A stretch of DNA of 64,000 bases. It comes from an uncultured Candidatus Saccharibacteria bacterium (GTDB lineage Bacteria > Patescibacteriota > Minisyncoccia > 2-02-FULL-40-12 > GWA2-44-9). The notes under the pieces are model-generated. The model ran no database searches, had not been told where the DNA came from, and saw only the letters and a program-made list of their open reading frames with translations. Below, in pieces: positions 6,347 through 22,625 of the stretch. Position 1 is the stretch's first letter; every line of letters starts with the position of its first letter. Both the position numbers and the translations under genes were made by a program. The DNA lies in the NCBI GenBank assembly GCA_964491455.1, contig CAZBFM010000001.1, positions 81,970 through 145,969 on the forward strand, given 5' to 3'.

Positions 6347-6424
6347 AGCGCCTCCCTTGAAAGAACGACCTGAAAAGAGTACACTGTCCAGGCGTTGTTC
6401 GCAAACGCAACAATCCAATTCCAT

Positions 6425-6496
6425 TCCGGAGTAGCTCAATGGTAGAGCAGGTCGCTGTTAACGACAAGGTTCCAGGTTCGAGTCCTGGCTCCGGAG
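6425..6496 (+). tRNA. tRNA-Asn (anticodon GTT)
   Basis: Acceptor stem TCCGGAG/CTCCGGA; D arm GCTCAATGGTAGAGC; anticodon loop CTGTTAA; T arm CCAGGTTCGAGTCCTGG; CCA not encoded. Confidence 0.8.
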
Positions 6497-7951
6497 CAAA
6501 TCAGGACGGTGTGAATATTCAGCCAGCAGATTGAATGGATTTCGTAAGGTAAACTCTAGGTTTTTACCGTTTAACTGAGCGTTCTGAAGGAAGTATCCTA
6601 AGAATTGCTGTTTTTCGGCTACTTCAGAACGGGTAAATATCTCAAGTGCCCTTTGTGCTAATGAAAGCACGGTTTTTGCAGTGATATGGTACTGCTCATC
6701 GGCATCCGTGTATTCCTGTAATTGAGTCTCAACCAGTCGCTGCTCTTCCTTGTAGCTCTTCAACTTCTTGTCGTATATGGCGTCAGTAATACGTCCGTCG
6801 GCAAGCATATCGATAAGGCGGTCGTTCATTGCTTGGATCTTATCGTAGCGCTGTCGCAGTTCGCTCGTAGCTTCCTCTTGGAAGGCCTTTTTAGCCTCGT
6901 GGGCGCGCCTGAGACTGGTAACTAGCATATCTATCCTATCCTGTGGTAGCTGAACTGATTTGAGGGCTTTTATGACTGGCTCGAGCATTTCTTTTTCATT
7001 CACATAGGTGCGGCTACAGGTGCCCTTATAATTCGTACAGCTGTAATACACGAGACGTCCCTTCTTTAGCTCAGGGGATACCATACTATTACAGTGCGTA
7101 CATCTGACGAGACGGCTCAAGATAAAGGGTCTATGTCGTGTTTTAGTTGCAAGATTGCTTTTGCGCGTCATTAGGCTCTGAGCTTTCTGGTATTTCTCAA
7201 TCGGAATCAGATGCTCGTAGTGATGCGGATACTCTTTGCCTTTGGAGATCATGGTTCCACAGTAGAACGGATCCTTTAAGACCTTCTGTATATTGCTCTG
7301 GGAAACCTTCTTACCGATCTTGCTGCGGAGGCCTCGCTTATGTATCTCGTCAGCGATTGCTCGAAAAGACCATCCTTGGAGGTAGAGATCATAGATAGAG
7401 ACTATGAAGTGGGCCCGTTCTGGATCGGGCACATGAACCTTTTTCTCCTGCATAGTAATCGAGACGTACCCAAGCTTCGGTTGGCCAATGGATTCGCCAT
7501 TGGCCAGCTTCTGCCTGAAGGTTCGTTTCACGTTGTCGCCAATCTGTAGCACGAATCCTCGAGCAAACATTACGCCCATATCCCAGCGCAGCATCTCGGA
7601 GCTGTTAGAGTCTTTGTTAATAATAAGTCCTTCTCGTATAAAATGAACTTCAACTTTGTCTGCCTTGATAAGCTCTAAGAGCAAGACTGATTCTTTAAAA
7701 CTGCGCTGCATTCGATCGATCGTTTCCACGATTAGTGCTACGCGTTCTTTCGAAGCCTTAATCAGCTCTATTATCTCCTCGAACTTCTTGCGATGATCTT
7801 TAAGGGATGATTCATCGAACTGAAACTCTTTCCATGCGTCTAGTTTCCTGCGTACTCGGTACTCACGAGAACGCTCAAGTTGTGCAGGGATGGATTGCCC
7901 ATCTCGCATCTGCTCTTCCGTTGAGACTCGAGCTAGAATTATCGCTTTCAT
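6458..7951 (-). CDS. large serine recombinase (resolvase/invertase-type integrase)
   Basis: N-terminal catalytic motif MKAIILARVSTEEQ; recombinase domain; Cys-rich zinc-ribbon region CTHCNS...CTNYKGTC; long coiled-coil C-terminus. Its 3' end overlaps the tRNA-Asn 3' half and its start overlaps the MTase stop. Confidence 0.85.
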   Translation of the reverse strand: MKAIILARVSTEEQMRDGQSIPAQLERSREYRVRRKLDAWKEFQFDESSLKDHRKKFEEIIELIKASKERVALIVETIDRMQRSFKESVLLLELIKADKVEVHFIREGLIINKDSNSSEMLRWDMGVMFARGFVLQIGDNVKRTFRQKLANGESIGQPKLGYVSITMQEKKVHVPDPERAHFIVSIYDLYLQGWSFRAIADEIHKRGLRSKIGKKVSQSNIQKVLKDPFYCGTMISKGKEYPHHYEHLIPIEKYQKAQSLMTRKSNLATKTRHRPFILSRLVRCTHCNSMVSPELKKGRLVYYSCTNYKGTCSRTYVNEKEMLEPVIKALKSVQLPQDRIDMLVTSLRRAHEAKKAFQEEATSELRQRYDKIQAMNDRLIDMLADGRITDAIYDKKLKSYKEEQRLVETQLQEYTDADEQYHITAKTVLSLAQRALEIFTRSEVAEKQQFLGYFLQNAQLNGKNLEFTLRNPFNLLAEYSHRPDLLRSQDSNLEPCR

Positions 7952-10900
7952 GTTTGACTTTTGTGGTTCATAATTAATTCTTTCTCTTCGTCACTGAGCT
8001 TGTACAGGCTCATAACGTGCATTTCAATGTTCGAAATATCATCGTCAATACTGATTTCGGGATTTACTTTTTTTTGTAGCATTACTTTTCTTACTAGATT
8101 TTCAATATTAGTAACGAGTGGAGAGAAATTTTCTTCAAAGTTGGGGATCGGTAAGGATTTAACTATTTCTGGAGAGAAGTTAATTCCACCGTCCATCGAA
8201 GAGATCTGAAACTTTTTGTCAATAAAATAAGCCATTACCTTGGAATTTAATATTCCAGTTAGTAGTTCAAGCGATTCATTAAGTTTTGGCGAGTATATTA
8301 TTGTAGTGGGTATTGTTGAGTAGAACTCTTTCTCTAAGTCAAGAAATGCCCTGAAGTGTCTTATCCCTGAAATCATTATTTTCTGAGCATCGAATAACTC
8401 GTACCTTCTCGGAAAGTGTTTTTGAAATTCATTGCACGTAACAATTGGCTTGTTAAAACTTAGTTTTAAATATTTGAATAACTGCCTCCCCCAAAGAGCT
8501 TCGTATTTACGCAGAGTGCCTGTGTTGATTAACTTCACCACCCGCTCGTCATTGTCTTGATGACACTCCTTAATTAGAGGTCGAAATTCGTACGCCTCAG
8601 ATGTGCTAAAAGATGCAAGGACGGAGAACCTATCACCCACGGTTTGGTAAAGCGAAAGTCTATCTAGAAGTTGGTCATTGTTAAATAATAAACCAAAATC
8701 CTTTAGATTGATCTTACTCCGCGGCGCAGTTGATTCCGAGTATTTTGAAATCTCAGAATAATTTCGTATTCGAATTATAGGTGTTGTCGTATTTTTTTGA
8801 AAAAGTACGACGATTGAAGATATTGAAGCTGTTTCGAAAACTTTAACGCTGGTGAAATTCGACATGCTTAAGAGGCCAGGTGCCAAGAGTTGTCTTAATC
8901 CGCCGCCGTATTCCATGGTAAGCCACTTGTTGGGAACAATGAAAGACACATTACCGAACTCGGAAAGGAGAGAGATTGATTTTTCAAAAAAGGGAACGTA
9001 AAGATCCCAAGCTCCCTTTGTTGCCGAATATATCTTTGAGAGTTTACGCCGCATAACTGGATCTGACTTAACCATATTAGCTGAATCAACATAAGGGGGA
9101 TTCCCAATAATAATGTTAAATTCCGATGTGCCGAATATAAACTCGGGATTGAAGAAGTTTGCGGATTGCTCACTATCAAACGGTCGGTATGTTTTGAGCT
9201 GCTTAGAAATTTGAGACTCGCCAAAAAGGCCCTCTCCTTGGTTAACGAGCTCGCTGTATTTTGCTCTTAGCTTTTTCTTATTATTTAGACTTTCAGTCTT
9301 AAAATATGCATCCCTGATTTCTCGGAGTTTTTTGGCTAACTGCGGGTCGTCTCCAAATGCGACTGCGCGACTCCTATCTAAGTCAATTAGCGAGTTTGCG
9401 CAAACAAATTTAAATTCAAGATTCGGTAACGGCTTAATATTTTTAGAATCCGCAGCCTCGTCAACGATGATAGATAGCCAAGTGCGAAGTCTTGCGATTT
9501 CCACAGCCATTGGCTCGATGTCGACGCCATAGATATTCTTTTCGATGATCGCAAGTTTCGTTTTATAGGAATCAAATCGTGACTCGAGACGTTCGTAAAC
9601 ACGAACTAACAACTGGAGCATTCCAATTGGAAAGGCTCCTGAGCCACAGGCGGGGTCTAACACCTTGAGCTCATCGAGTGCTTCTATGATTCCGTCCTTG
9701 TATGGTTTCCAGTCTCTGCGCCAGTTATGATCTTGGTCTTGGAAGTCTTTATCGGGGGCATCAATAAGCTGAACCAATCTTTGGTCTCTAAACTGATCTT
9801 CAGGGATTTTTGTTTTTAAATATTCACGTAGAGATTCACGGCACATATAGTCCACAATCTCACGTGGTGTATAGAACGCACCCTTTGCTTTGCGTGCTTG
9901 CTCTCCAGTGTCTTCCGTGATTTCAGCAAGGAGATTCTCGAAGATTCTTCCTAGCATTTCAGGATCAATCGCTACTTGCTGGAACTGACTAGTACTCTCG
10001 TCGGTTGTGAAGTTATAGCCATTAAGAAAGTCAAAGAGGTCATTGAAGTAGTACTTTGGGAATGAGAGTTTTGAATTTCTATACAAGTCAGTATCTCGTG
10101 CCTCAAAAAGTCCACCATTTAGGAAGGGGGTTACGTCGTCTTTATATTCACGATCGGCAATAGGAGTGTTGAGCACTCCAAAGAATAGATTTTCGAGGTT
10201 CTTTCGATAGTATTCGGAGCTATTCTCAAATGCGTGAGAATCAAAATACTTTCGATCTGGGTTGATCACACCTTTTTTGTCTAAGAACCAGCAGAAGATT
10301 ATGCGTCCGAGTAGGCGATTCGCAAATAGAGACGCATGCTTATCGTCGAGGATATTCTCTTTCGTAAGGTATTGTCGGAGAGTGATAAATCTCTCGCTGA
10401 TACCTGCGTAAAACTTCTTGTTGAGCGGCTGCAAATCGAAGCTCTCCCACAGAATGGCGTGCACTTCTTTCTTGTTACTGAAATCAGAGATACTAGCCCA
10501 TTTGGCAAGAATCTCTTGGAAGGTGGCAGTTAGCGCTCCTTTGAGCTCTAAAGTGCGAACGACGTAGTTATTACTCAAAACTATAATCACTCTGTCAGCG
10601 CTCTTTGGCACAACAAAATCTATCCCTACGTTATACTTTGAGTTAAACGACTCATCCTCAAAATTTGGAGTAAGGGCTTGGGCCCACGCAATAGTTCGCT
10701 TCGACGGTTTGGTGACGCCGTACAACTTGAAGTCTATGTTGAGCTTGTTGCCGTTATGAATCTTGTACGTTGCCTTACGATCTATAATAACTTGATCCTC
10801 AAAAAACCAAGATGCATTGGCTCTGATCTTACCATCGCTGTCGGAAAACAATTGGAAAAGATTCTGGTCATCGGGCGATACGGAATCATCTAGAAGATGT

Positions 10901-11004
10901 ATTACGGCGAGAATAACTTTCTTGGCTTGAGCAAGAGTTTTATGCTCAGATAGGGTATTGAGCTCTTTCTGTATTTCTTGGATTGCAGGCAGCGGCTTAT
11001 TCAT
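7948..11004 (-). CDS. large gamma-class N6-adenine DNA methyltransferase with N-terminal and C-terminal extensions (type IIG / PglX / DrmMI-like layout)
   Basis: SAM-binding motif I VLDPACGSGAFPIG near aa 467; catalytic motif IV IIIGNPPYVDSANM near aa 640 (about nt 9092-9103); ~450 aa upstream including a possible PD-x(n)-ELK element (GIDFVV...RTLELK); ~380 aa downstream, TRD-like. 1018 aa; AT-rich codon usage. Confidence 0.8.
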   Translation of the reverse strand: MNKPLPAIQEIQKELNTLSEHKTLAQAKKVILAVIHLLDDSVSPDDQNLFQLFSDSDGKIRANASWFFEDQVIIDRKATYKIHNGNKLNIDFKLYGVTKPSKRTIAWAQALTPNFEDESFNSKYNVGIDFVVPKSADRVIIVLSNNYVVRTLELKGALTATFQEILAKWASISDFSNKKEVHAILWESFDLQPLNKKFYAGISERFITLRQYLTKENILDDKHASLFANRLLGRIIFCWFLDKKGVINPDRKYFDSHAFENSSEYYRKNLENLFFGVLNTPIADREYKDDVTPFLNGGLFEARDTDLYRNSKLSFPKYYFNDLFDFLNGYNFTTDESTSQFQQVAIDPEMLGRIFENLLAEITEDTGEQARKAKGAFYTPREIVDYMCRESLREYLKTKIPEDQFRDQRLVQLIDAPDKDFQDQDHNWRRDWKPYKDGIIEALDELKVLDPACGSGAFPIGMLQLLVRVYERLESRFDSYKTKLAIIEKNIYGVDIEPMAVEIARLRTWLSIIVDEAADSKNIKPLPNLEFKFVCANSLIDLDRSRAVAFGDDPQLAKKLREIRDAYFKTESLNNKKKLRAKYSELVNQGEGLFGESQISKQLKTYRPFDSEQSANFFNPEFIFGTSEFNIIIGNPPYVDSANMVKSDPVMRRKLSKIYSATKGAWDLYVPFFEKSISLLSEFGNVSFIVPNKWLTMEYGGGLRQLLAPGLLSMSNFTSVKVFETASISSIVVLFQKNTTTPIIRIRNYSEISKYSESTAPRSKINLKDFGLLFNNDQLLDRLSLYQTVGDRFSVLASFSTSEAYEFRPLIKECHQDNDERVVKLINTGTLRKYEALWGRQLFKYLKLSFNKPIVTCNEFQKHFPRRYELFDAQKIMISGIRHFRAFLDLEKEFYSTIPTTIIYSPKLNESLELLTGILNSKVMAYFIDKKFQISSMDGGINFSPEIVKSLPIPNFEENFSPLVTNIENLVRKVMLQKKVNPEISIDDDISNIEMHVMSLYKLSDEEKELIMNHKSQT

Positions 11005-14000
11005 TGTTCTTCACGTAAAACAGCACACTTTCTGCTCGCTTAGGCAGTTCGATGGCGTCCTTGTCTGAGTGATTACTTACCTCTTTTGCAAGTGAGACGA
11101 GTTGTTTCAAGTTTTCGTTATATACCTCACCTTTGTTCTTCTGAGCCATTATTCTTCGTTTCAATTGACCGATGTCGCGACGATAGAAAACATCTTTTGT
11201 TTTGAACGCATCCCGAACGATATCAATTTCTAGCTCCGTATAACCAACTGAATGCATCAATCGAAGTATTTCATTCTCCTGGCCGATTAATGCGCCAATC
11301 TCTTCCTCACCAAAATATTGAACGACATGAGATTGGAGTTGCTCTTTTACCGCAATCTTATTTGCAGTTATCTTGTCTATTAATCGCTCGTTATCTTCGG
11401 GGGTAGTGCGCAACCACTCAATAGCCTGCAGTTGGGACGCTGCCTGTATTTGAGAACCGTCACGATCAATCTTTGCAAACTGAAATCCTACTTCTTCTCC
11501 AGATTCAGCAAACAAGCGGGCCATTCCAAAGACTTCAGGTTTATCCTGTCCACGAGAGCTATTGCCAGGCATCAGGGCCCACTTGCCAGCAGATATTTCG
11601 TAGATAGATTTCTTGTACTTTTCTGGGTAATTAGCGTTCGAATTAAATCTTTTTAGATCGAGAACAAATTCATCTTCAGAAAGCAGGAAGTCCGAAGCCT
11701 TTTCTGCGTCTTGAAGAGCTTGCATTCGTTTCTGAAAGTCAGCACTGTAAATATCACTCACTGAATCAGTGTATTCAATCGGGTTTTCTGGTTCATCGAG
11801 CACGGGCGTATCAGTGCCGATGGTATTCTTGATGATGTCGATCTTTCCTTGAAGTCGTTGAATCAGCTTGAGGTATGAGTCGAGCTTTGCCTCAGGCCGC
11901 ATATTATAGATGTATACTTCATCAAAGGTAGAGCCGAGACGGTTTACACGGCCATTTCTCTGAATCATACGCACTGGATTCCAGTGGAGATCGTAGTTGA
12001 TTAAAATACCTGAATCTTGAAGATTTTGACCTTCAGAGAGCACGTCCGTAGAGAATAGGTACTGTAGGGGGGTCTCTCCTTCTTTCAACTGGTACTTCTT
12101 CGATACAGGAGAGAACCGAGATGCAATGTTTTCTGCGTCGCTACGATTCTTTGATGATACGAAACCAGTGTTTGTGTGATTGATAGATGGTGCATATTTG
12201 CCGATGCTCTCTTCAAGGTAGTTGACGGTATCTGCGAAGTACGAGAACACGAGAACTTTTTTATCTGGTTGCTCTGTGCGTAGCTTTTCGAGGCGATCCG
12301 CAAAGCATTTGATCTTGGAGTCGTCTTTATTGAGAATCTCAAGTTGTTCACGAATAATCGCGACAAGCTCTTTCTCTTTTGCGAGATCTGCCTTGATAGT
12401 CGCTAGCTCGTAATTCTTGTCATCAATAACGTCGAGGGTATTTTCTTCCAGTAATTCCGCATCGATCTCTATATCTTCATCGCCTAAACTGATACTTAGT
12501 GCCTCAACATCATTGAGTGATACTATCTTCCCGTCTTTGATGCCCTTCTCGAAGAGCTCAAGCTTGTGCGCATATGTATCGAGAGATGATCGGAGTGCGC
12601 TCACCGATGATTCCATTCGCTTCAAGAAAACCGTTCGCAGGATACCGAAAATGCCGAGCTGTAAGAGAAGTCTTTTGCTCTGATCTGAACTAAGCCCGAT
12701 CTCTTTGATTTCGTCTCGTGTTTTACCGTAGTACTTACTCTGATACATCATCCAGCGATATGGAATGAAGCCGAGCATTAAGATCAACTGGAATACAAAG
12801 TACATCGGGTTTTCATCATCAAGAACCTCCTGGCCGACCCTCTTTGTTACGAGAGACAGTTGATCTGTAGGATGTTTGAGATCCTTACACTTCTCGACGA
12901 TCTCGTTGGGATCGAGGCTGTAAATAAGATTGAGGTCAAAAGACTTAGAGTCGACAGATTTTATCTTTGAAACAAGTTTCTTATCAAACTCGTACACCGT
13001 AACTTCGGGGATTACCTTGGGAAACTTTTTAGTCACACCATCGATGGTGAGTGATCCATATTCTTGCTCAATACCTTGTCGAGTACGACGAACAACAAAT
13101 GTACGGATAATTGGGGTCATTATCTGCTTGATGTAGTTGTAATCTATCTTTCCGTGACGCTTAAGATCCTGGTTGATCTTCTTTTTAAGGTTTTCGACTG
13201 CTTGATAGAAGCTGATTTGAACCGTCTGTTTTTGTTCGTCTGCAACCGTAACCTTGAGAACTTCTGCATCTCCACCAGTACCAAGAAGGATCTGGTTTGT
13301 AATATCGCTCAACTGGTTATTTATTGGCGTCGCAGTGAGGAGTAGAACGTGAGCTTTAGGATTGGCGCGTACCCATTCAAGTAATTGTCTAAACCGAGTA
13401 CCGCTCGTCTGGCGTAGGTTGTGGGATTCATCGATCACGAACAATGACACGCTGGCGATGCCATCGAGTTCTCTCTTCTGTTCAATCTCGTTGCTGTTTT
13501 GTAGGGTGTTTGGCCTGAGGCCAAACACGCCTTCGGAAGCGAGCTCTTTTTGCCATTGCTGAACTAGAGATTTTGGACAAATAACCTCTACTCGCTTTTT
13601 ACCCTCTGGGTTATCCAAGTACTGCTTCAATACGGTGATCGCTGTAGTTGTTTTTCCAAGACCAACCGAATCAGAAAGCATGGCTACGTTGTACTTACGC
13701 AGTCTTCGTAAGAGGGAGTGTACGTTTTTTTGCTGAAAATCGAAAAGAGTTTTGCCTTGTCCGCTCTTTACGGAATTGAGAGGATCATCTTGAATCTCTT
13801 CTTTGTAGAGTTCGTAGAGTGTCTTTATGTATGTCTCATATGGAGAATAAAGCATATCCCCGACAGGAGAGGATTCGAGAATCGCACCAAACTCCTCATT
13901 CCATCGCTCTGTAGTTTTGTCATTCCAAAGCTCGTCGAACCAAAACAGGTGTCCGATTTCTTGCGTCTCATTCTTCGGCTGGAATAGTACTACTCGATGA

Positions 14001-14479: not shown

Positions 14480-14483
14480 GAAA

Positions 14484-14657
14484 TTATTTTGTCTTACTTG
14501 CGTCTAAGAACCGTTCAAATTCTATTCGTGGGATTCGAAACTCTTTACCAATCTTGTGTGCCTTGAATCGTTTCGCCTTGATATAGCGATAGATAGTCAT
14601 GACATTTACTCGGAGTTTGTCGGCTAGTTCTTGAGCGGTATAGTAGCTCTTTTCCAT
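14484..14657 (-). CDS. excisionase-family helix-turn-helix DNA-binding protein (57 aa; not in the supplied ORF track)
   Basis: Translation MEKSYYTAQELADKLRVNVMTIYRYIKAKRFKAHKIGKEFRIPRIEFERFLDASKTK matches the Xis/AlpA/MerR-like excisionase HTH pattern; lies 4 nt upstream of the helicase start. Confidence 0.55.
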   Translation of the reverse strand: MEKSYYTAQELADKLRVNVMTIYRYIKAKRFKAHKIGKEFRIPRIEFERFLDASKTK

Positions 14658-14681
14658 ATGGTTAGTATACTTTACTTTGGT

Positions 14682-15803: not shown

Positions 15804-16036
15804 GTGAATTAGGAGTTATCGTTTGGTTTATACAATTGCGGGTTTATTCGCAGGTCTATCCGAAGGAGCAGATCAAACGCGCTGACGAGATTATCAGCGT
15901 CAAAGTCAACCCATTCGTAAGGTTGTTCTTTCGGTAGGTTGTCTTCTTTGGTCGGCTCTTCAAACATAAAACCTGATGGTTATGACATCAGGTTACGCTT
16001 GCTACGCTGCCTAGTATAAGAATTAATTGATACTAG

Positions 16037-16810
16037 TTAACTTCTTTTCCGCTTTTCGATTTGTCTGATTTTCCCAATATGGCCGTCATCGAGGAATACC
16101 CCAGTATCCGCAAGTTGTTTTCGGATTTGAGATAGCGACAGCTCACGTAATTCATAAATTCGATCGTTTATTTGCTGCTTCTTTTTAGTTCGGATTCCGT
16201 TGAGTAGCGTCTTCGTCGTGTCTCGATATGCAACAATGTCCTTCCAGTTTCTTGATATGAAATCCTTTAGTTGATTCTGAGTTGCCTCTGGGTTGATGAA
16301 AAGGGCAACAGGGTGGGTCTTGCTGATCTCATGAAAGTGCGCATACATGTGCTTCAAAAGTGTGTGATCAGTTTCGCTGTACCATGAAAGTTCGGAAGGT
16401 AAATGGTCGATTCTAAAGAGATCATCATGTTCGCTGCTGTATCTTAATGGCGCATCAATTATCTTATTAAAAATTAAATAGTATCTAAGTATCGATGCGA
16501 TGATCATGCTAGTTATCCCTTGTTGCCCCGTAAATGCCATACAAGTATTTATGATCCGAATAGAGGGATTCGGATTGTCTTTGCTGGGTGAAACAATTCT
16601 AACGGGGACATAGAAAAATGATTCTATTGGCTTTGTGATTTCAGCGGCATCGATTTCAAGGAATGGCATGCCACTCGGCGGTATTCCAAGGATCTCGCGG
16701 TAGTCCTTTATAAACTTAGCAACGGTATCCTTCCTGATGAATTCCTCAAAAAACTTGATCGTTTGCTGGGCGGACTTGCTAAGACCTTGGCGCGTAGTAG
16801 CGATCTTCAT
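16037..16810 (-). CDS. hypothetical protein
   Basis: 257-aa ORF with its own hairpin plus U-tract terminator at about 15975-15998 on the minus strand; AT-rich. Confidence 0.45.
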   Translation of the reverse strand: MKIATTRQGLSKSAQQTIKFFEEFIRKDTVAKFIKDYREILGIPPSGMPFLEIDAAEITKPIESFFYVPVRIVSPSKDNPNPSIRIINTCMAFTGQQGITSMIIASILRYYLIFNKIIDAPLRYSSEHDDLFRIDHLPSELSWYSETDHTLLKHMYAHFHEISKTHPVALFINPEATQNQLKDFISRNWKDIVAYRDTTKTLLNGIRTKKKQQINDRIYELRELSLSQIRKQLADTGVFLDDGHIGKIRQIEKRKRS

Positions 16811-16864
16811 GTGTCACTTTACATTACTTTACATTCCTAGTATTTTCAATAAGAAAAGTGATCT

Positions 16865-17608
16865 ATGAAAAAGGAGTTCAAAATAAAGGAACGCGGGCTC
16901 TACAAACCAGGTAGCGATGAACCCTTCAAGGTTAGCCGCTCTGGTATTGAGCTGTTCACGGAGTGTCCGTGCTGTTTTTATTTAAACAATCGAACTGGTA
17001 TTCGGCGACCCTCTGGCCCGCCATTCAACATCAACAAAGCGGTAGATACGCTTTTGAAGAAGGAGTTTAACGTTCACCGAGCAAATGCGACACCCCATCC
17101 ATATATGAAGCACTATGGCATTGATGCTGTGCCATTCCAGCACGAGATGATGAACGAATGGCGAGAGAACTTCAAAGGCGTTAGGTATCATCACAAGTCC
17201 ACGAATTTGCTTGTCACGGGCGCGGTTGACGATATTTGGGTCAATCTATCTGGGGAGCTCATTGTGGTTGATTACAAGGCGACCTCAAAGAACGAGGAGG
17301 TGAGCTTGGACGCGGATTGGCAGATGAGTTATAAGCGTCAGATGGAAGTGTATCAGTGGCTTTTGCGCCAACTTGGATTCAAAGTTTCGAATACTGGATA
17401 TTTTGTATACTGCAATGGAAGAGCCGACGCGGTGGCATTTGATGGTAAAGTTGAGTTTGATGTGGTGCTTTTGCCCTATGAGGGTAATGACGGCTGGATT
17501 GAGGATGCGCTCATCCAACTCAAAAAGTGCCTGGACAACCCCGAGACACCCGCGCCAACGAGTGACTGCGAGTTCTGCGGGTACGCTCAAGCTCGCTGCC
17601 ATGTCTAA
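16865..17608 (+). CDS. Cas4/RecB-like PD-(D/E)xK nuclease with Fe-S cluster cysteines
   Basis: D...E-x-K core AVDDIW...LIVVDYKATSK; one N-terminal Cys cluster ECPCCFY plus C-terminal C-x2-C-x6-C (CEFCGYAQARC) as in Cas4/AddB-type Fe-S nucleases. Confidence 0.7.
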   Translation: MKKEFKIKERGLYKPGSDEPFKVSRSGIELFTECPCCFYLNNRTGIRRPSGPPFNINKAVDTLLKKEFNVHRANATPHPYMKHYGIDAVPFQHEMMNEWRENFKGVRYHHKSTNLLVTGAVDDIWVNLSGELIVVDYKATSKNEEVSLDADWQMSYKRQMEVYQWLLRQLGFKVSNTGYFVYCNGRADAVAFDGKVEFDVVLLPYEGNDGWIEDALIQLKKCLDNPETPAPTSDCEFCGYAQARCHV

Positions 17609-17972
17609 TCGCTTCGGCATCCCACTCGAAGTTGAAAACAGGCTTCGAGCTCGTGATAAGTATTGCGTTTACTGCGGAAAGAAGATGGCTGCATGGTCTG
17701 TTCGAAATAGCAAAGATGATGAGACCATTGAACATTTTAGAGAAAAGGGCCCGTTTTATTGGAGGGGACATCCGAAAGCTGACATAAATAATGAACTGAA
17801 AGAAGATGACTTGGCCATATGCTGTCGTAGTTGCAATTCAAGTCGTAGTAGGTGGAAGTTGCACGATTGGTTCACGAGGCCTTATTGCAAAAATAGAGAG
17901 AGACCGATAGATGAAGGATCAGTTGCTGAACCAGTCAAGCAGTATATCCGACGGCTAGGTTTAGCAGCCTGA
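17601..17972 (+). CDS. HNH endonuclease-domain protein
   Basis: CVYCGKK...H and CCRSCNSSR zinc-finger-like HNH signature; ATG at 17601 overlaps the upstream gene by 8 nt, suggesting translational coupling. Confidence 0.65.
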   Translation: MSNRFGIPLEVENRLRARDKYCVYCGKKMAAWSVRNSKDDETIEHFREKGPFYWRGHPKADINNELKEDDLAICCRSCNSSRSRWKLHDWFTRPYCKNRERPIDEGSVAEPVKQYIRRLGLAA

Positions 17973-18025
17973 TACAGATCTGGGCTGTCATTTATCTTTG
18001 CGCATTCAGAGAGTATAGTCGTGAT

Positions 18026-18778
18026 ATGAAACGCTCAGTGATTATCGAAATACTTACACTGGTCGTTCTGATTGTCCTTTTGCTCACCATATCGGAGCAG
18101 AGCAAGCATATATTTCTCTACGCATGGGAGCGGCCAGAGGACTTTTCTTTTTTGAAAAATGTTCCTGAGCGTAGTCGTCCGACCATCATCGTTTTCTCAG
18201 GAGCCATATCAGTGCGTCGTGATGGTCTGTCTTTTTCGCAGCGGAGCAATCCCTTAAAGCTCCCAGAGGGTACTCGAGTAATACCGCTTATTCGAATTGA
18301 TAGCTACGTCAGTTCAGCTTCATTCGCGAGCTACTTAGATTCGATCGCTCAGCTCGTTGTGAGGGTCTGCGGTGGGAGCGCTGAGTGCCAGTTAGACTTC
18401 GATGATGCTCGCCCAAGCGATTTCGAGAGGTATGGGGCACTTATCGAGCGCATTGCTGCTGAGATCCCAGAGACCTCGTTAAAAATGACCGCACTCGCCA
18501 CTTGGTGTGGAGGGCAAAGCTGGCTCGATTCGCTACCAGTCGCCAAAGCGATACCTATGCTGTATCGTATGGGCATCGGTTCTCGGGCGATCAAGGCAGG
18601 GGATGTACCATCAGGATTTCTTTCGAATGCGAAGTGCCGCGGCGTTCGGGCTGTTGCTATGGATGAATTAGATTTTGATGTTCAACGATACGGAAACGAT
18701 TCTACGGAATGGTACGCATTTAATCCTCGCCCCTGGACAAGGACAGACTACGATAAATTACTCTCCGCACTTCGATGA
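18026..18778 (+). CDS. hypothetical membrane-anchored protein
   Basis: N-terminal TM helix IIEILTLVVLIVLLLTI; stop overlaps the start of the next gene (ATGA). Confidence 0.5.
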   Translation: MKRSVIIEILTLVVLIVLLLTISEQSKHIFLYAWERPEDFSFLKNVPERSRPTIIVFSGAISVRRDGLSFSQRSNPLKLPEGTRVIPLIRIDSYVSSASFASYLDSIAQLVVRVCGGSAECQLDFDDARPSDFERYGALIERIAAEIPETSLKMTALATWCGGQSWLDSLPVAKAIPMLYRMGIGSRAIKAGDVPSGFLSNAKCRGVRAVAMDELDFDVQRYGNDSTEWYAFNPRPWTRTDYDKLLSALR

Positions 18779-21321
18779 AAAGAATCATTAGCATTTCGAT
18801 CACGATCGTGCTGCTCCAGTTCATACCTGTTTTTGCATCGGCGAGTGATACACCAGCTCCATTTGAAATCTATGAGAAGTCGTATCTCGAGAGAGTGCTG
18901 AGTCGCGTTTGGTTTGATGCCACCAGAGACTATTCGTCATATTTATTTGGCGAGAAGTTAAATCCCGTCTCATTCTATGCGGCGTATAGCGCCATGACTG
19001 GACAAGAAGTTACTGACGACATGAAGAAGGCTGCCGAGGCGATGTTTAAACAGCACGGCAACTGGCGCCCCGAAACATCAACCGAAGACTGGAGTGTTCT
19101 GTCCCCAATTGATACGTGGCGATCTGCTGCATCAGCTATTGTAAATGAACCACCTGGGAGTCATAAAAAATATTTTGATGACCAAATTTGTCCCGACGGA
19201 GCTATTACCGCAGCGCTGGCTAGTCTTGAGGATCGCAAGAAAAACTACACAGCTCAGGAGTTAAAGACATGGGTTGAGAATCAAAACAAAGTATTTGTTC
19301 CTTGTGAGATCGATAGTCTTTGGGAGCCCAGATCCCTCGCGCCACGTTGCACATGGAATCAGGGCCAGGAAAACGTCCGATTGTCGCTTTGGGGTCGTAT
19401 CAAGAGATTCTTCGGATTTTCCGATGCACGGCCCAGTTTTCTCTGCTCTGATGATGACATCTCGGGGCCCAAAGATGCATCGGTGCGCCTCATGCAAGAT
19501 ATTGCGTATCAACGAGCTGCGCGCCATCTCTACCGAGGAGGACTTCTCAATACTCAGGAACTTCAGGAGGCGCAGCGTTCATTCGAAGCTATCTCACGAG
19601 ACGAGTCCAATCCATGGTCGGCGTATGCCAAGATCGGACAAATTCGCTCTATGATTCGTGAGTTGGACGGGATAAATAATGAACTGAATACTCAGGCGCG
19701 TGGTGATATAAATAATTATGAATGGCAGGCGAAGCTGTTCTACAATTCGGATAGTGCTCTTCGCGAGAAGTCGAAAGCTGCTCTGGAAGTCGTCGAGGCG
19801 AGTCTTAGCGATCAGAAAATGCATGAATATCGAGACCAGCTTCTATTGCAACGCGAAATGATACTTGCTCGACTTGTTGATTCTCACGCTGCGAAGGATT
19901 CATGTGGTGTTGTGGTGGCGCGAGGGAGTGACGCTACGCATCATCTGGCTATTTGCATGCAGCAGTACCAGTTGAACGCGAGTGGTCGCGTTGTGCAGGC
20001 GAGGGATTCAACTATAGACATGATGCAGATGCCAGAATTTCTCAGATATGTCTGGTATTGGAATTCCGAAAATACGACCGATCTGAGAGCGAAAATTCGG
20101 AGAGAATACGATCAAAGTCCCAGAAAATCGCTTTGGTCAGTACTGCTCCTACGGAAAATCTCACAGGATCCTAGTGCAATAACAACTGACGATGCCAGTC
20201 TTGTGGAGTCTGCACTTCGTCAGGGCGTTTCCAATAATCTGTATTGGCAACTACAGTACTATGCAAATGCGGTTCTATTTCTTAGCGATTCTTTGCGGGC
20301 GGCGACGAATATCGCTACTCTGCTCTCGAAAACGAATGTTCCTGATATAGCTTTTAATTTCTTTTCGGATCTAGCGATGTCCCATGCGAAAAGCTTGGAT
20401 GAAATGATTCGATACGGCGAGCGACGCACCTCTTTTATACAGGGCTACGGCTACTCGTATGGATTTGAACGTTCCAATGGTATTATATCAGCTACTCTGG
20501 GGCGTTTAGGGGCTAAGTACGACGATGTGGGCTATAGCGGTAAGGATACTCTACGATCGTGGTACGATAATTATAAATTTCGTGGAAAAGAACAGCCGAC
20601 CGACGGCCAACTCATTGATCTCTTAAATTATGGCGTTCCGATCGATTCGCTATTGGCAAACGAGTACCTCGCAAATCGTTATGCAGGTCAAATCCTGACT
20701 CGCGCATTGCTACTCGGGAGAAACGATATTACCAAAGGGCTCGCGGGCAAACATGTCATGGGTGATCAGGCGTTACGAGGAACTAATGATACCACGACGC
20801 AGTTGCAGCAAGACTTTGGTTTTGTTTATGCGATTTTGCATTCAACAGATCCAAACAGAGAGGATCCGTATGGCATAGCCATTCATAATCGAAACTTCAA
20901 CAATTCAACGAATGATTGGCATCTTGAGTGTGCTGCATGCGGGGGATACTCAAACTACGACAACAAGAACGGGAAAGAGTATCACGACTTCGATCGGTGG
21001 ATGCGTCAGTCCTCTCAGAAAGAATACTCAGAGCGAGTGTTAAGCGAGGATGAGCGAAAGGAAAATACTCGCGAGAAAGAAAAGCTGCTGGAAACTCCGA
21101 TTGTAAAATTTCTTGGGGACATCATATTGAGTTACGCAAAAGAGAATCCGAATGATTCACGAGTACCCGAAGCTCTAGCGGGGCTTGTTGAGTTTTATCG
21201 AAACAACTATCGATACGCACCATTTGAACAAGATCAGAAAACACAGAAGAAGGCATTCGAATATCTCCATAAGAATTACCCGAATTCATCATGGGCAAAG
21301 AATACTCCTTATTATTATTAG
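18775..21321 (+). CDS. large secreted hypothetical protein (848 aa)
   Basis: Signal peptide MKRIISISITIVLLQFIPVFASA; translationally coupled to the upstream membrane protein; no recognisable catalytic motif. Confidence 0.6.
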   Translation: MKRIISISITIVLLQFIPVFASASDTPAPFEIYEKSYLERVLSRVWFDATRDYSSYLFGEKLNPVSFYAAYSAMTGQEVTDDMKKAAEAMFKQHGNWRPETSTEDWSVLSPIDTWRSAASAIVNEPPGSHKKYFDDQICPDGAITAALASLEDRKKNYTAQELKTWVENQNKVFVPCEIDSLWEPRSLAPRCTWNQGQENVRLSLWGRIKRFFGFSDARPSFLCSDDDISGPKDASVRLMQDIAYQRAARHLYRGGLLNTQELQEAQRSFEAISRDESNPWSAYAKIGQIRSMIRELDGINNELNTQARGDINNYEWQAKLFYNSDSALREKSKAALEVVEASLSDQKMHEYRDQLLLQREMILARLVDSHAAKDSCGVVVARGSDATHHLAICMQQYQLNASGRVVQARDSTIDMMQMPEFLRYVWYWNSENTTDLRAKIRREYDQSPRKSLWSVLLLRKISQDPSAITTDDASLVESALRQGVSNNLYWQLQYYANAVLFLSDSLRAATNIATLLSKTNVPDIAFNFFSDLAMSHAKSLDEMIRYGERRTSFIQGYGYSYGFERSNGIISATLGRLGAKYDDVGYSGKDTLRSWYDNYKFRGKEQPTDGQLIDLLNYGVPIDSLLANEYLANRYAGQILTRALLLGRNDITKGLAGKHVMGDQALRGTNDTTTQLQQDFGFVYAILHSTDPNREDPYGIAIHNRNFNNSTNDWHLECAACGGYSNYDNKNGKEYHDFDRWMRQSSQKEYSERVLSEDERKENTREKEKLLETPIVKFLGDIILSYAKENPNDSRVPEALAGLVEFYRNNYRYAPFEQDQKTQKKAFEYLHKNYPNSSWAKNTPYYY

Positions 21322-21376
21322 CTAACGAATGAGTCGGGGATTTTGTGCATAGTCAAATTGGGTGTATATCTTACAT

Positions 21377-21646
21377 ATGAGCCAAGATAATAAAGCAATA
21401 CTCCAATGGATCGTTCTGCCACTAATTATCGTAGCAGCTTTGCAATTATTTTCAGGAACAAGGGAAAAGGATTGCACTAAACTTGAACCAAGGAATCCTT
21501 TCTCGGATGGAGGACATGCGGCGGGGTTTGAATGGGCGCAATCAAAGGATGTGCGTGACTGCGGGGGCATATCGACATCCTTTCAACAGGGGTGCAATGA
21601 ATTCGTCATCCAGCAGCTTACTTATGAGGACTGCCTAGCAAAATGA
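21377..21646 (+). CDS. hypothetical small membrane protein, Cys-containing
   Basis: ORF with one TM helix IVLPLIIVAALQLF; start uncertain (ATG at 21377 or GTG at 21362). Confidence 0.3.
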   Translation: MSQDNKAILQWIVLPLIIVAALQLFSGTREKDCTKLEPRNPFSDGGHAAGFEWAQSKDVRDCGGISTSFQQGCNEFVIQQLTYEDCLAK

Positions 21647-21647
21647 C

Positions 21648-21911
21648 ATGATGGAAACTACTAAATTTAGGGACTACATTCTTAGGTATCAGCGATATAT
21701 AATGGCGTTTGTTTTGATCCTTACTCTTGGGTGGGTGTATCTTCGCGAGTATCGCTTAGAGTACTGTGTCGCGAAATATCCGCAATCAGAGGATGCAGCA
21801 TCGGTAGGGGGACTTTCTGACTTATCACACCTCCCCAGGCTGCCAGGTTTTGAAGAATATGGTGATCGGCAGCGTTGCCTAGATAAACCCATTTCATCTT
21901 TCTTGTTCTAG
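21648..21911 (+). CDS. hypothetical small membrane protein
   Basis: 87-aa ORF with TM helix IMAFVLILTLGWVYL. Confidence 0.3.
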   Translation: MMETTKFRDYILRYQRYIMAFVLILTLGWVYLREYRLEYCVAKYPQSEDAASVGGLSDLSHLPRLPGFEEYGDRQRCLDKPISSFLF

Positions 21912-22134
21912 CAGGATGGAATATTCTAAATGTTCATGAATCTACTGACGGTTGTCGGCAGATCCTGACGAATTCTACGCCAATCCACCGTTCTGAATGC
22001 GTTCTGTAATCGGAGCATAAATCAAAACGAGGCCCACACGGGTCTCGTTTGAGTGACATTGACAAATACAAAAATAGTGTGCTAAAGTATTCGCGGTCTG
22101 AAGAATCACAATTCTTGCTAAGGAGCGTAGGTGT

Positions 22135-22578
22135 ATGAAATTACCGGCGAAGTTCTTTGACGAGTTGCTGCGGTTGGCGCACCGGCATGGCATCAAGGAG
22201 ATCGGAACATCACTCATCCGTACGGGCGATGATGATAAGGCGGTCGCAGAGCTCGTCATTTTTTCTGATGAAGTCTCCGACAGTGTTCGAGCCCCAGGGT
22301 CCGCGTGGCAGACACAAAACTACCTCGAGTCGTTTGGTGTGCCGCGTGAGCGCTTTCCTGTCGGGACCGACAGTCGAAGTATCAGGGTGAAGGTGGTGAA
22401 TTCAAGGAGCGATGGTCACGAGCAACAGCTCCGCCTCCTTGGAGAATTTCTCGGGCTTGAGGAAATCCATTACCTCGATCGAGGTAATGGTGAGAATTAC
22501 ACCTTTGTGCGACATGATGGAAGAAAGATGACGCTTATGGTGCGACGTTGTTGGGCAAGGTGGGTTCCTTGCGATTGA
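22135..22578 (+). CDS. hypothetical protein
   Basis: AAGGAG RBS; followed by a strong terminator. Confidence 0.5.
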   Translation: MKLPAKFFDELLRLAHRHGIKEIGTSLIRTGDDDKAVAELVIFSDEVSDSVRAPGSAWQTQNYLESFGVPRERFPVGTDSRSIRVKVVNSRSDGHEQQLRLLGEFLGLEEIHYLDRGNGENYTFVRHDGRKMTLMVRRCWARWVPCD

Positions 22579-22625
22579 TAAAACGCGTGATGCTCCCTTG
22601 ATGGGATAGTCTCCGTGGTCGTCTT

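What the first reader, a model, noticed from the sequence alone, without database searches (positions are those of the whole stretch)
6425..22015. AT-richer integrative island inserted at tRNA-Asn, bounded by a large serine recombinase
The tRNA-Asn gene is immediately followed, with about 39 nt overlap, by the 3' end of a 497-aa large serine recombinase gene. From there to about 22 kb the base composition is visibly more AT-rich than the flanks (by eye). Gene content shifts to an excisionase-like HTH, nucleases, a giant MTase and helicase, unknowns and a secreted protein. Typical small GC-richer host-like genes with CCCCGCC-type terminators resume after about 22.1 kb.
Basis: partly seen in the sequence, partly recalled or inferred. 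Interest (0 to 1): 0.6.

Follow-up and report, generated by a model that had tools for sequence, protein, structure and literature searches.

The report
Mobile restriction-gene island at tRNA-Asn
A 15.5-kb mobile DNA element sits right after the tRNA-Asn gene of a tiny "candidate phyla radiation" bacterium; a serine integrase put it there, it carries a restriction-modification defence system, and it belongs to a large family of similar elements that I found no description of.

Summary
The host is a Candidatus Yanofskybacteria-like (CPR/Patescibacteria) genome.

**Island limits.** The island spans about 6499-22010, with 44.2% GC against 51.0% in the flanks. A strain 99% identical on the left flank lacks it. 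That strain also preserves a decayed copy of the unoccupied site, which matches the attB rebuilt from the window's two junctions at 34 of 38 bases. Both junctions share the core CGGAGCA. The far-end arm is conserved in the closest related element.

**Integrase.** The 497-aa large serine recombinase ends 40 nt inside the tRNA gene on the opposite strand. Its stop codon is the complement of TTA in the anticodon loop. Among 64 informative metagenomic relatives, 42 show the same kind of overlap, 30 of them with tRNA-Asn.

**Backbone.** The conserved gene order is a small ORF, a ~370-aa protein with an inovirus gpII-like fold (probable rolling-circle initiator), a 57-aa excisionase-type HTH, a cargo slot, and the recombinase.

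**Cargo.** Here the slot holds a PLD-SNF2 nuclease/translocase and an MmeI/Eco57I-like methyltransferase. All 15 filled slots scanned in relatives hold restriction or modification genes.

Excision, replication and restriction activity are inferred, not shown.

The parts
6425..6497 (+). tRNA-Asn (GTT), the integration target. It is intact. Its T-arm and acceptor 3' strand form the B half-site of attB.
   Evidence: ARAGORN; Rfam RF00005, 67.9 bits; conserved next to tdk-rpoD-dnaG in related genomes.
6492..6498 (+). Core CGGAGCA at attL. The crossover lies somewhere within this 7-nt identity; the exact dinucleotide is not resolved.
   Evidence: Identical 7-mer at 22011-22017. DNA similarity between the window recombinase gene and L175 ends at 6493. 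L083 diverges from the window at 6498-6502.
6499..22010 (.). Inserted element, 15,512 bp, 44.2% GC.
   Evidence: Absent from L083. Composition. Logan contig L082 (SRR12404947) carries window 12135-22614 at least; inferred start at 6469.
6458..7951 (-). Large serine recombinase (integrase), 497 aa. Its last 13 codons and its stop lie antisense inside tRNA-Asn, that is, across attL.
   Evidence: PF00239, PF07508 and PF13408; phrog_95 integrase, 2e-70. R8, S10, D79, R80 and R83 are invariant in the 24-sequence alignment A3. More than 1100 homologues, mostly from CPR.
7948..11004 (-). Cargo: MmeI/Eco57I-like gamma-class N6-adenine DNA methyltransferase with a TaqI_C specificity domain, 1018 aa. 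No nuclease domain was detected.
   Evidence: Pfam; PADLOC REase_MTase_IIG, 1.6e-148; TaqI methyltransferase and BrxX in the PDB. The specificity region (below ~9081) diverges from L179, while the rest is ~80% identical in DNA.
10997..14479 (-). Cargo: N-terminal PLD (HKD) nuclease fused to an SNF2 helicase, 1160 aa. It overlaps the methyltransferase gene by 8 nt.
   Evidence: Pfam PLDc_2, SNF2-rel_dom and Helicase_C; PADLOC 'HKD+Snf2', 1.6e-46. The same gene pair occurs in L179, L180, L181, L158, L138 and Lactococcus plasmid pJM1F.
14484..14657 (-). 57-aa HTH_17 excisionase-family protein. It is a backbone gene at the head of the cargo slot and a candidate directionality factor or regulator.
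   Evidence: TIGR01764, 45.8 bits; phrog_66. It is 67-73% identical in L084, L088, L089 and L175, where the recombinases are 49-80% identical.
14682..15803 (-). 373-aa backbone protein, a probable rolling-circle replication initiator with a gpII/Rep_trans-like fold.
   Evidence: 32-64% identical homologues at the same position in L084, L088, L089 and L175. AF2 model with pLDDT 79. BFVD hits with probability 1.0, E from 3e-8 to 2e-5, including Inoviridae G2P. Weak Rep_trans/Phage_CRI hits in homologues. 1336 clusters in the representative library.
15809..15967 (-). 52-aa backbone ORF upstream of the Rep-like gene.
   Evidence: Homologues at the same position in L084, L088 and L175.
16037..16810 (-). 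257-aa protein of unknown function. It is not found in the related elements examined.
   Evidence: No Pfam, PHROG, NCBIfam, PADLOC or PDB hit. No tblastn hit in other elements.
16865..17608 (+). PD-(D/E)XK (Cas4-like) nuclease, 247 aa; right-arm cargo.
   Evidence: PF12705, 2.4e-13; Cas4 models, 4e-8.
17601..17972 (+). Small Cys-rich, HNH-like ORF (weak hits only).
   Evidence: PHROG HNH endonuclease families, 3e-4 to 1e-3; PtuB, 8e-4, below cutoff; start checked.
18026..21321 (+). Two overlapping genes: a 250-aa protein with an N-terminal membrane anchor and an 848-aa protein with a signal peptide. Function unknown.
   Evidence: N-termini MKRSVIIEILTLVVLIVLLLTI... and MKRIISISITIVLLQFIPVFASA.... 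No family or PDB hits.
21362..21911 (+). Two small ORFs (94 and 87 aa), each with a hydrophobic segment; unknown.
   Evidence: ORF list; called as genes in Logan contig L082; no family hits.
21972..22017 (+). attR: element-side P arm (TTCTGAATGCGTTCTGTAAT) plus core CGGAGCA (22011-22017).
   Evidence: 85% identical over 46 nt to the corresponding end of the related element L175. Half-site motif GT(C/T)CTG is shared with the B and P' arms.
22018..22052 (+). Host side of attR (B' arm): the original tRNA-Asn trailer and its hairpin (GAGGCCCACACGGGTCTCGTTT), now 15.5 kb from the tRNA.
   Evidence: In L083 the same sequence directly follows a decayed tRNA 3'-end copy.

Best explanation
This is an integrated mobile element of a large family found in CPR/Patescibacteria.

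**Integration (inferred mechanism).** A large serine recombinase joined a circular element (attP) to the 3' end of the host tRNA-Asn gene (attB). The exchange fell inside a shared 7-nt core, CGGAGCA, which comprises the last bases of the tRNA and one trailer base. The tRNA therefore stays intact, and its original trailer and terminator are moved 15.5 kb away.

**Recombinase gene and attP.** attP lies within the 3' end of the recombinase gene itself. In the integrated state the ORF runs across attL, reads the tRNA antisense, and stops at the anticodon-loop TTA (497 aa). In the circular form the ORF would instead end in the element's far end (514 aa).

**Backbone.** The conserved order is small ORF, gpII-like rolling-circle initiator, excisionase-type HTH, cargo slot, recombinase. 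All are co-oriented and tightly packed, probably as one operon.

**Life cycle (inferred).** Excision by the recombinase with a directionality factor (the HTH is the candidate), rolling-circle replication of the circle, and transfer by an unknown route.

**Cargo.** The slot holds a two-gene ATP-dependent restriction-modification module. The MmeI-like methyltransferase/specificity protein would mark host DNA. The PLD-SNF2 protein would translocate on and cut unmarked DNA. This would protect the host and stabilise the element.

**Right arm.** A second cargo region (16.0-21.9 kb) carries nucleases and secreted proteins of unknown role.
For: **Shown**
- Presence/absence polymorphism against a 99%-identical strain.
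- Core repeat at both junctions; the rebuilt attB matches the L083 relic at 34 of 38 bases.
- The P arm is conserved in L175, and recombinase-gene similarity ends at the core.
- Catalytic residues of the recombinase are intact.
- 42 of 64 informative family loci overlap a tRNA 3' end, 30 of them tRNA-Asn with 40-43 nt of overlap.
- Backbone synteny holds in L084, L088, L089 and L175, and in 25 of 54 metagenome loci.
- The gap from the HTH gene to the recombinase gene ranges from 5 nt to 6.8 kb.
- All 15 filled slots scanned carry restriction or modification genes; so do L138 (by tblastn) and L175 (Type I).
- The PLD-SNF2 + methyltransferase pair recurs with the same 8-nt overlap in unrelated contexts.
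- The Rep-like fold matches inovirus G2P.
- Composition differs from the flanks.

**Inferred**
- All enzymatic activities, excision, replication, and the role of the HTH.
Against: - No clean empty site and no circular junction were found. L083 carries a 180-nt remnant of something else.
- The 7-nt core alone is not significant: CGGAGCA occurs 7 times in the window.
- The Rep assignment rests on fold hits with TM scores of only 0.35-0.48 and sub-threshold Pfam hits. Foldseek against the PDB found nothing.
- No transfer or packaging genes were recognised.
- The right arm is closer to host GC (46.7%) and is not shared with relatives.
- The closest relative, L175, is not at a tRNA.
- The methyltransferase resembles type IIG enzymes, which normally carry their own nuclease, so the division of labour with the PLD-SNF2 protein is a guess.
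Confidence: 0.8

Rival explanations
1. It is a prophage, for instance an inovirus-like filamentous phage that uses a serine integrase.
For: The gpII/G2P-like fold of the 373-aa protein. Integrase and excisionase hits in PHROGs. Small hydrophobic ORFs and secreted proteins in the right arm.
Against: No capsid, terminase, tail, Zot-like assembly ATPase or coat-protein family hit in any ORF. No relative of the Rep-like protein in IMG/VR, GenBank phages or plasmids. Related elements are as small as 6.3 kb and contain only the backbone genes plus three other ORFs (137 aa, 91 aa and a mechanosensitive-channel-like protein).
Confidence: 0.06
2. It is an immobilised relic: a defence island fixed at a recombination hotspot. 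The recombinase would be inactive or co-opted, for example to regulate the restriction operon.
For: The recombinase is translationally coupled to the methyltransferase gene (4-nt overlap). No excision junction was found. The tRNA-Asn locus also shows relics of other insertions (L083, and L089's second pseudo-copy).
Against: The recombinase, HTH and Rep-like genes are full-length with conserved catalytic residues. Both att arms are intact and the P arm is conserved with L175. The island is absent from a 99%-identical strain. Coupling of the recombinase to the upstream gene is a family feature even without cargo (L084). No inverted-repeat shufflon was found in the methyltransferase.
Confidence: 0.12
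3. It is a composite. Only about 6.5-16.8 kb would be the serine-recombinase element. The 16.9-22.0 kb arm (PD-(D/E)XK, HNH-like, secreted proteins) would be a separate, older insertion or host-derived DNA.
For: The arm has higher GC (46.7% against 43.0%; some genes reach a GC3 of 0.57, like host genes). It is on the opposite strand. None of its genes occurs in the related elements examined.
Against: The conserved P arm of the family lies at 21972-22017, beyond this arm. No internal tRNA-like or att-like copy separates the two parts. L083 lacks both parts together. Relatives also have variable DNA between the P arm and the small backbone ORF (1.3 kb in L175).
Confidence: 0.1
4. It is native DNA with unusual composition and no horizontal origin.
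For: None beyond the fact that composition alone cannot prove transfer.
Against: Absence in L083. Synteny with L001, L002 and L004 stops exactly at the tRNA. The cargo genes are 57-93% identical to genes in unrelated genomic contexts.
Confidence: 0.01

Closest known systems
tRNA-gene genomic islands integrated by tyrosine integrases (Islander-type islands)
   Same: The target is the 3' end of a tRNA gene. The integrase gene lies next to the tRNA. The tRNA is left functional. Cargo includes defence genes. Composition is atypical.
   Different: The enzyme here is a large serine recombinase. The repeat is only 7 nt, rather than a displaced tRNA fragment of tens of nt. [quoted passage not shown] I could not check whether later surveys changed this.
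rumA-targeting single serine-integrase ICEs of streptococci and clostridia (Tn1549/Tn5252-type), as described in PMC4701971
   Same: One direct repeat lies inside the 3' end of the serine integrase gene. Integration therefore exchanges the integrase C-terminus with target-derived sequence. Here the product is 497 aa when integrated and a predicted 514 aa when circular.
   Different: Their target is a protein-coding gene, which is altered. They carry conjugation modules. Here the target is a tRNA, which stays intact, and no conjugation genes are present.
Tycheposons of Prochlorococcus (bioRxiv 10.1101/2020.12.28.424599)
   Same: Small tRNA-targeting integrative elements that combine a site-specific integrase, replication genes and variable cargo. 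A minority use a large serine recombinase.
   Different: 910 of 937 use tyrosine recombinases. Their replication genes are primases, helicases or polymerases, not a gpII-like initiator. Their cargo is not specifically restriction-modification. The host phylum differs.
Type ISP / Type I / Type III ATP-dependent restriction-modification systems, and DISARM class 1 parts (DrmD, DrmC, DrmMI)
   Same: The cargo combines an N6-adenine methyltransferase/specificity module with an SF2/SNF2 translocase and a nuclease domain. The same slot in sister elements holds genuine Type I, Type III and Type ISP-like systems.
   Different: The nuclease is a PLD domain fused to SNF2, on a separate polypeptide from an MmeI-like methyltransferase. 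The DISARM core genes drmA and drmB are absent, and so are the BREX genes. The pair has been noted as a gene context (PMC9881135), but I found no characterisation of it.
Inovirus gpII (G2P) / Rep_trans rolling-circle initiators
   Same: The predicted fold of the 373-aa backbone protein matches viral G2P-like models. Some homologues give weak Phage_CRI or Rep_trans hits. The alignment has invariant H122, Y177-D178-K179 and R218/E220/R222.
   Different: No sequence-level membership was found (no Pfam hit for the window protein, no PDB hit). No other inovirus genes are present. Activity is untested.

Membership tests
Large serine recombinase (serine integrase) | N-terminal resolvase catalytic domain with the serine nucleophile and conserved Arg/Asp residues | tested here: met
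   PF00239, 59.7 bits. R8, S10, D79, R80 and R83 are invariant in A3. The corresponding Bxb1 residues are listed in 10.1101/2025.09.16.676606.
Large serine recombinase (serine integrase) | C-terminal recombinase domain plus zinc-ribbon domain | tested here: met
   PF07508, 62.8 bits, and PF13408, 35.5 bits, both above cutoff. C284, C287 and C305 are invariant.
Large serine recombinase (serine integrase) | Short att sites with a small shared core flanked by imperfect inverted half-sites | tested here: inconclusive
   A 7-nt core is present at both junctions. A GT(C/T)CTG motif sits at a similar offset in the B, P and P' arms. The P arm is conserved in L175. No binding or cleavage data exist, and the central dinucleotide is not resolved.
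Large serine recombinase (serine integrase) | Catalyses attP x attB integration, and excision with a directionality factor | not testable with these tools
   Needs recombination assays or junction reads.
Islander-type tRNA island (tyrosine integrase) | Tyrosine-family integrase | tested here: not met
   No Phage_integrase domain in the island; the integrase is of the serine family.
Islander-type tRNA island (tyrosine integrase) | Intact tRNA gene at one end and a displaced tRNA fragment at the other | tested here: not met
   Only CGGAGCA (7 nt) is repeated. No longer tRNA copy was found.
Prophage | Virion structural and packaging genes | tested here: not met
   No such hit in Pfam, PHROGs or NCBIfam for any island ORF.
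Integrative conjugative element | Type IV secretion genes (VirB4, coupling protein) and a relaxase | tested here: not met
   None detected. The Rep-like protein could in principle act as a Rep_trans-type relaxase, but this is untested.
Rep_trans / Phage_CRI rolling-circle initiators | Significant match to the family model | tested here: not met
   The window protein has no Pfam hit. One homologue hits Rep_trans at 6e-4 and another has a weak Phage_CRI hit.
Rep_trans / Phage_CRI rolling-circle initiators | Shared fold | tested here: inconclusive
DISARM class 1 | Core genes drmA and drmB (DUF1998) together with drmC/drmD/drmMI | tested here: not met
   Only DrmD-, DrmC- and DrmMI-like domains are present, all far below the NCBIfam cutoffs. 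There is no DrmA or DrmB gene.
BREX | PglZ, BrxC and BrxL/BrxA together with PglX | tested here: not met
   The methyltransferase hits PglX models only weakly (85.8 bits against a cutoff of 500). No other BREX gene is present.
MADS | mad1-mad8 gene set | tested here: not met
   The HTH hits the PADLOC mad1 model at 3.4e-11. With NCBIfam it scores 26.5 bits on MADS1 (cutoff 80), and the methyltransferase scores 16.6 bits on MADS2 (cutoff 720). No other mad genes are present.
Type IIG restriction-modification enzyme (MmeI-like) | Single polypeptide with N-terminal nuclease, methyltransferase and specificity domain | tested here: inconclusive
   The methyltransferase, helical spacer and TaqI_C domains are present. 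No nuclease domain was detected in residues 1-230. The gene is always paired with the PLD-SNF2 gene.

The most novel reading that the evidence does not exclude
The island would be one member of a very large, so far undescribed family of CPR/Patescibacteria integrative elements. Members combine a tRNA-targeting large serine recombinase, a gpII-like rolling-circle initiator and an excisionase-type HTH. The operon stretch from the HTH to the recombinase would be a dedicated docking slot for interchangeable restriction-modification systems. That would make these elements a main vehicle for restriction-modification exchange in bacteria that largely lack CRISPR (the last point is from my own knowledge). 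A further speculation concerns the fact that attP lies inside the recombinase gene and that integration places the gene's end antisense to a tRNA. The integration state might then be sensed through the swapped C-terminal tail or through convergent tRNA transcription.
Probability: 0.35. Interest if true: 0.7.

Novelty: new variant of a known kind. Interest (0 to 1): 0.55.

Why it matters
- **Scarce examples.** From my own knowledge, mobile elements of CPR/Patescibacteria are poorly characterised, and these organisms cannot be manipulated genetically. A defined integrase with a reconstructable attP and attB is a candidate genetic tool for them. It is also a new source of serine integrases with tRNA targets.
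- **Unusual target.** tRNA genes are the classic targets of tyrosine integrases. A serine-integrase family that uses them routinely broadens that rule.
- **Defence-gene traffic.** A restriction or modification gene set occupied every filled cargo slot examined. This gives a concrete, testable route by which defence systems move among these very small genomes.
- **Uncharacterised restriction module.** The PLD-SNF2 + MmeI-like methyltransferase pair is widespread, with 57-93% identity across unrelated genomic contexts, yet I found no functional study of it.

Tried and rejected
- **Long direct repeats.** A search across 6300-23500 found none involving the tRNA. The 7-nt core was found only by comparison with L083.
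- **Species-level relatives.** The genome-contig loci (L001-L080) share the left flank up to the tRNA but never the right flank, so they gave no empty site.
- **Exact-protein look-ups.** Look-ups of the recombinase failed twice.
- **Logan contig ends.** I considered the contig ends in sample SRR12404947 (inferred start 6469; overlap 22585-22614) as signs of co-existing island-free DNA. I rejected this. The right break is 575 nt beyond attR, and the left break can be explained by a tRNA sequence shared between organisms.
- **'Decayed tRNA copy' at the right junction.** I first read it that way. Comparison with L175 shows it is the element's conserved P arm.
- **Rep-like protein.**
  - No PDB sequence hit and no PDB Foldseek hit.
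  - No relatives in IMG/VR, PLSDB plasmids or GenBank phages.
- **Circular junction.** The exact attP junction sequence was not found in IMG/VR.
- **Named defence systems.** DISARM, BREX and MADS membership were rejected because core genes are missing and scores fall below cutoffs.
- **Unknown cargo proteins.** The 257-aa and 848-aa proteins have no PDB sequence match.
- **Other RNAs.** Rfam found no RNA in the island other than the tRNA.
- **Literature.** Searches found no description of this element family.

Full report
**Observation**

ARAGORN and Rfam both find tRNA-Asn(GTT) at 6425-6497. A 497-aa ORF on the minus strand (6458-7951) carries the three domains of a large serine recombinase (Resolvase, Recombinase, Zn_ribbon_recom). 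It overlaps the 3' part of the tRNA gene by 40 nt. Its TAA stop is the complement of the TTA in the anticodon loop.

GC content drops from 51.0% in the flanks to 44.2% over 6499-22010. For 1-kb windows the means are 0.510 and 0.442, with Mann-Whitney p = 2e-8, and no 15.5-kb stretch of the right flank falls below 49.8%. The drop is stronger at 6.5-16.9 kb (43.0%) than at 16.9-22.0 kb (46.7%).

The listed gene content is correct. Strong GC-rich hairpin terminators occur just outside the island and not within it.

**Host and left flank**

The left flank is cobW, a desaturase, dnaG, rpoD, a thymidine kinase gene (5759-6346, minus strand) and tRNA-Asn. The closest rpoD relatives in a species-level genome collection are Candidatus Yanofskybacteria and other Parcubacteria MAGs. 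L001, L002 and L004 share this gene order up to the tRNA. Similarity stops there. In L004 and L012 the tRNA is followed directly by a terminator-like hairpin.

**Boundaries**

- **L083.** This 1463-bp contig from another sample is 99% identical to window 5487-6501. After the tRNA it has 180 nt of unrelated sequence. It then has a decayed copy of the tRNA 3' end joined to ATAAATCAAAACGAG..., and the start of the gene that in the window begins at 22135 (80% identity to 22010-22272). The whole stretch 6499-22010 is therefore missing in a close strain.
- **Core.** Both window junctions carry CGGAGCA, at 6492-6498 and 22011-22017.
- **Rebuilt attB.** Joining the left side of attL to the right side of attR gives a tRNA 3' end followed by a hairpin. 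This rebuilt site matches the L083 relic at 34 of 38 positions. attL matches it at 19 of 38 and attR at 30 of 38.
- **What L083 is.** It is best read as the same ancestral site hit by a different element that has since been largely deleted. It is not a clean empty site.
- **Caveat on the core.** The 7-mer alone is not significant; it occurs 7 times in the window. Its value comes from its position.

**The far end is the cognate end**

The closest related element is L175-L178, from Yanofskybacteria contigs. Its recombinase is 80% identical and its Rep-like protein 64% identical. At its far end it has a 46-nt stretch that is 85% identical to window 21972-22017, ending in the same core. DNA similarity between the two recombinase genes stops at window 6493, inside the core. 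So 21972-22017 is the element's P arm, and the whole 15.5 kb is bounded by matching ends.

The B, P and P' arms share a GT(C/T)CTG motif at a similar distance from the core. This fits a single protein recognising all half-sites, but it is only suggestive.

**The recombinase gene spans attP**

In the rebuilt circular form the ORF would run into the element's far end and give 514 aa with a different 27-residue tail. The integrated form has 497 aa, with 10 tail residues read from the tRNA antisense strand.

The same principle, an att repeat inside the 3' end of a serine integrase gene with exchange of C-termini, is described for rumA-targeting streptococcal ICEs (PMC4701971). That feature is therefore not new in itself.

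**Family behaviour**

The recombinase has more than 1100 homologues at E below 1e-10, mostly 44-57% identical and from CPR lineages. The 80 metagenomic loci retrieved with an alignment of the family fall out as follows:

| Outcome | Loci |
|---|---|
| Cut by a contig end (uninformative) | 16 |
| Recombinase ORF ends inside an antisense tRNA gene | 42 |
| – of these, tRNA-Asn (40-43 nt overlap) | 30 |
| – of these, His, Ser, Arg, Gln, Thr or Met | 12 |
| No tRNA at the recombinase 3' end | 22 |

Further points:
- Many family proteins end in peptides such as LRGQDSNLQP, which are translations of the antisense acceptor and T-arm.
- Direct repeats are usually shorter than 10 nt.
- L089 has a 14-nt repeat that defines a 6.3-kb element.
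- In L001, another Yanofskybacteria species, the same tRNA-Asn is occupied by a 7.4-kb element. Its recombinase is only 29% identical, and it has a 19-nt repeat.
- The Islander paper stated in 2014 that serine-family integrases were not known to target tRNA genes (PMC4383910). I found no later paper describing such a family, but my searches were limited.

**Backbone**

L084, L088, L089 and L175 share with the window the following order, all on one strand and tightly packed:
1. a ~50-aa ORF;
2. a ~370-aa protein, 32-64% identical to the window protein;
3. sometimes a small ORF;
4. a 57-aa HTH_17 protein, 67-73% identical;
5. a variable stretch;
6. the recombinase.

Among 54 metagenomic loci with at least 2.5 kb upstream of the recombinase, 25 have the HTH and 25 have the ~370-aa protein upstream on the same strand.

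*The HTH.* It passes the excisionase-family model TIGR01764. From my own knowledge, a small Xis-like protein serves as the directionality factor for the serine integrase of phiRv1, so such a role has a precedent.

*The 373-aa protein.*
- It has no Pfam, NCBIfam or PDB sequence match.
- An AlphaFold model from a 12-sequence alignment (pLDDT 79, pTM 0.79) matches viral models, including an Inoviridae G2P replication protein, with probability 1.0 and E from 3e-8 to 2e-5, at modest TM scores of 0.35-0.48.
- Two homologues give weak Rep_trans or Phage_CRI hits.
- The alignment has invariant H122, Y177-D178-K179 and R218/E220/R222.
- I therefore read it as a rolling-circle initiator, with moderate confidence.
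- The family has 1336 clusters at 50% identity in a 1.84-billion-protein library. It has no relatives in IMG/VR, PLSDB plasmids or GenBank phages.

**Cargo slot**

The distance from the HTH gene to the recombinase gene ranges from 5 nt to 6.8 kb in the family, and it is at least 2 kb in 18 of 25 loci. In the window it is 6.5 kb. The filled slots contain one to four tightly packed ORFs. Every one of the 15 slots scanned with Pfam holds restriction or modification genes:

| Slot content | Loci |
|---|---|
| Type III Mod + Res | L096, L100, L128, L136, L144, L155, L157 |
| Type ISP-like single protein | L094 |
| Other methyltransferase-containing sets | L097, L099, L124, L165, L169 |
| Mrr-type endonuclease | L167 |
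| Same pair as the window | L158 (also L138, by tblastn) |

L175 carries a Type I system there. This is the most striking regularity I found.

**The window's cargo**

- **The pair.** The 1160-aa protein has an N-terminal PLD (HKD) nuclease domain and an SNF2 helicase. The 1018-aa protein has MmeI-like spacer and methyltransferase domains and a TaqI_C specificity domain, but no detectable nuclease. The two genes overlap by 8 nt.
- **Recurrence.** The same pair with the same overlap occurs in L179 (93% and 64% identity), in L180 (next to a tyrosine integrase, in an actinobacterium-like context), in L181, and at 35% identity on Lactococcus plasmid pJM1F. On pJM1F it sits beside an inverted TaqI_C cassette and an invertase.
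- **Specificity region.** Against L179, DNA identity of about 80% runs through the HTH gene, the helicase gene and two thirds of the methyltransferase gene. It then stops before the specificity region. This is the pattern expected when specificity domains are swapped.
- **Prior mention.** The gene context is mentioned in a table of PMC9881135, but it is not named.
- **Not a named system.** It is not DISARM, BREX or MADS, because core genes are missing and scores are below cutoffs.
- **Inferred mechanism.** The methyltransferase/specificity protein marks its own DNA, and the PLD-SNF2 partner translocates on and cuts unmarked DNA.

**Right arm**

The stretch 16.0-21.9 kb holds a 257-aa unknown, a Cas4-like PD-(D/E)XK nuclease, a weak HNH-like ORF, a 250-aa anchored protein, an 848-aa secreted protein and two small hydrophobic ORFs. 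None occurs in the related elements examined, and most have no family match. I treat this arm as a second cargo region.

**What is not shown**

- No circular junction and no clean empty site were found.
- No transfer or packaging genes were recognised.
- All enzymatic activities are inferred.

**Verdict**

- The island itself is an ordinary kind of thing: an integrative element at a tRNA gene.
- The variant is unusual. It is a tRNA-targeting serine-integrase element with a gpII-like initiator, in a CPR bacterium.
- It belongs to a large family whose operon consistently carries restriction-modification systems.

Noticed in passing
L001:9215-16656: In another Yanofskybacteria species the same tRNA-Asn (after rpoD and tdk) is occupied by a different ~7.4-kb element. 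Its 539-aa serine recombinase is only 29% identical to the window's. It overlaps the tRNA by 15 nt and is bounded by an exact 19-nt repeat of the tRNA 3' end.
   Followed up: partly
L083 (reverse complement) about 1012-1230: The strain lacking the island has, after tRNA-Asn, its own terminator hairpin, about 140 nt of unrelated DNA, and then a 25-nt decayed copy of the tRNA 3' end (GAGTCCTGGCTTCGAAGCA). This looks like the scar of an earlier, different insertion with a longer repeat.
   Followed up: partly
window 22010-22614: The first gene right of the island (22135-22578, 147 aa, no family hit) is only about 80% identical to its L083 counterpart over the part L083 covers (22010-22272). The left flank is 99% identical. 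In sample SRR12404947 the assembly breaks at 22585-22614, just after this gene. The gene may itself be variable or part of an older insertion.
   Followed up: no
L175:4594-4694: The related element L175 has a tRNA-like sequence with a long extra arm in its non-coding far-end region. ARAGORN does not call it, and the Rfam tRNA-Sec model scores 29.5 bits, below threshold. No counterpart exists in the window island.
   Followed up: partly
L182 (Lactococcus cremoris plasmid pJM1F) 1737-10230: A 35%-identical PLD-SNF2-type helicase + N6-methyltransferase pair is followed by an inverted TaqI_C specificity cassette and an Mpi-family invertase. This suggests phase-variable specificity in this restriction-modification type.
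   Followed up: no
L101-L105, L111, L112, L116, L117, L122, L154: A subgroup of recombinase homologues (~46% identical) overlaps tRNA-Asn by 42 nt in the same way. It has no detectable HTH or Rep-like gene upstream, so the same integrase type serves a different, unexamined backbone.
   Followed up: no
L084:9618-10004, L088:9652-10023, L089:9499-9900: Elements without restriction-modification cargo carry a ~125-133-aa ORF of unknown function between the HTH and the recombinase. It is absent from the window and from the cargo-bearing elements.
   Followed up: no
L158 and L138: The same PLD-SNF2 + methyltransferase cargo (68-75% and 71-76% identity) sits in elements whose recombinases are only 45% identical to the window's. 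One of them is at tRNA-His. Cargo modules therefore move between backbones.
   Followed up: partly
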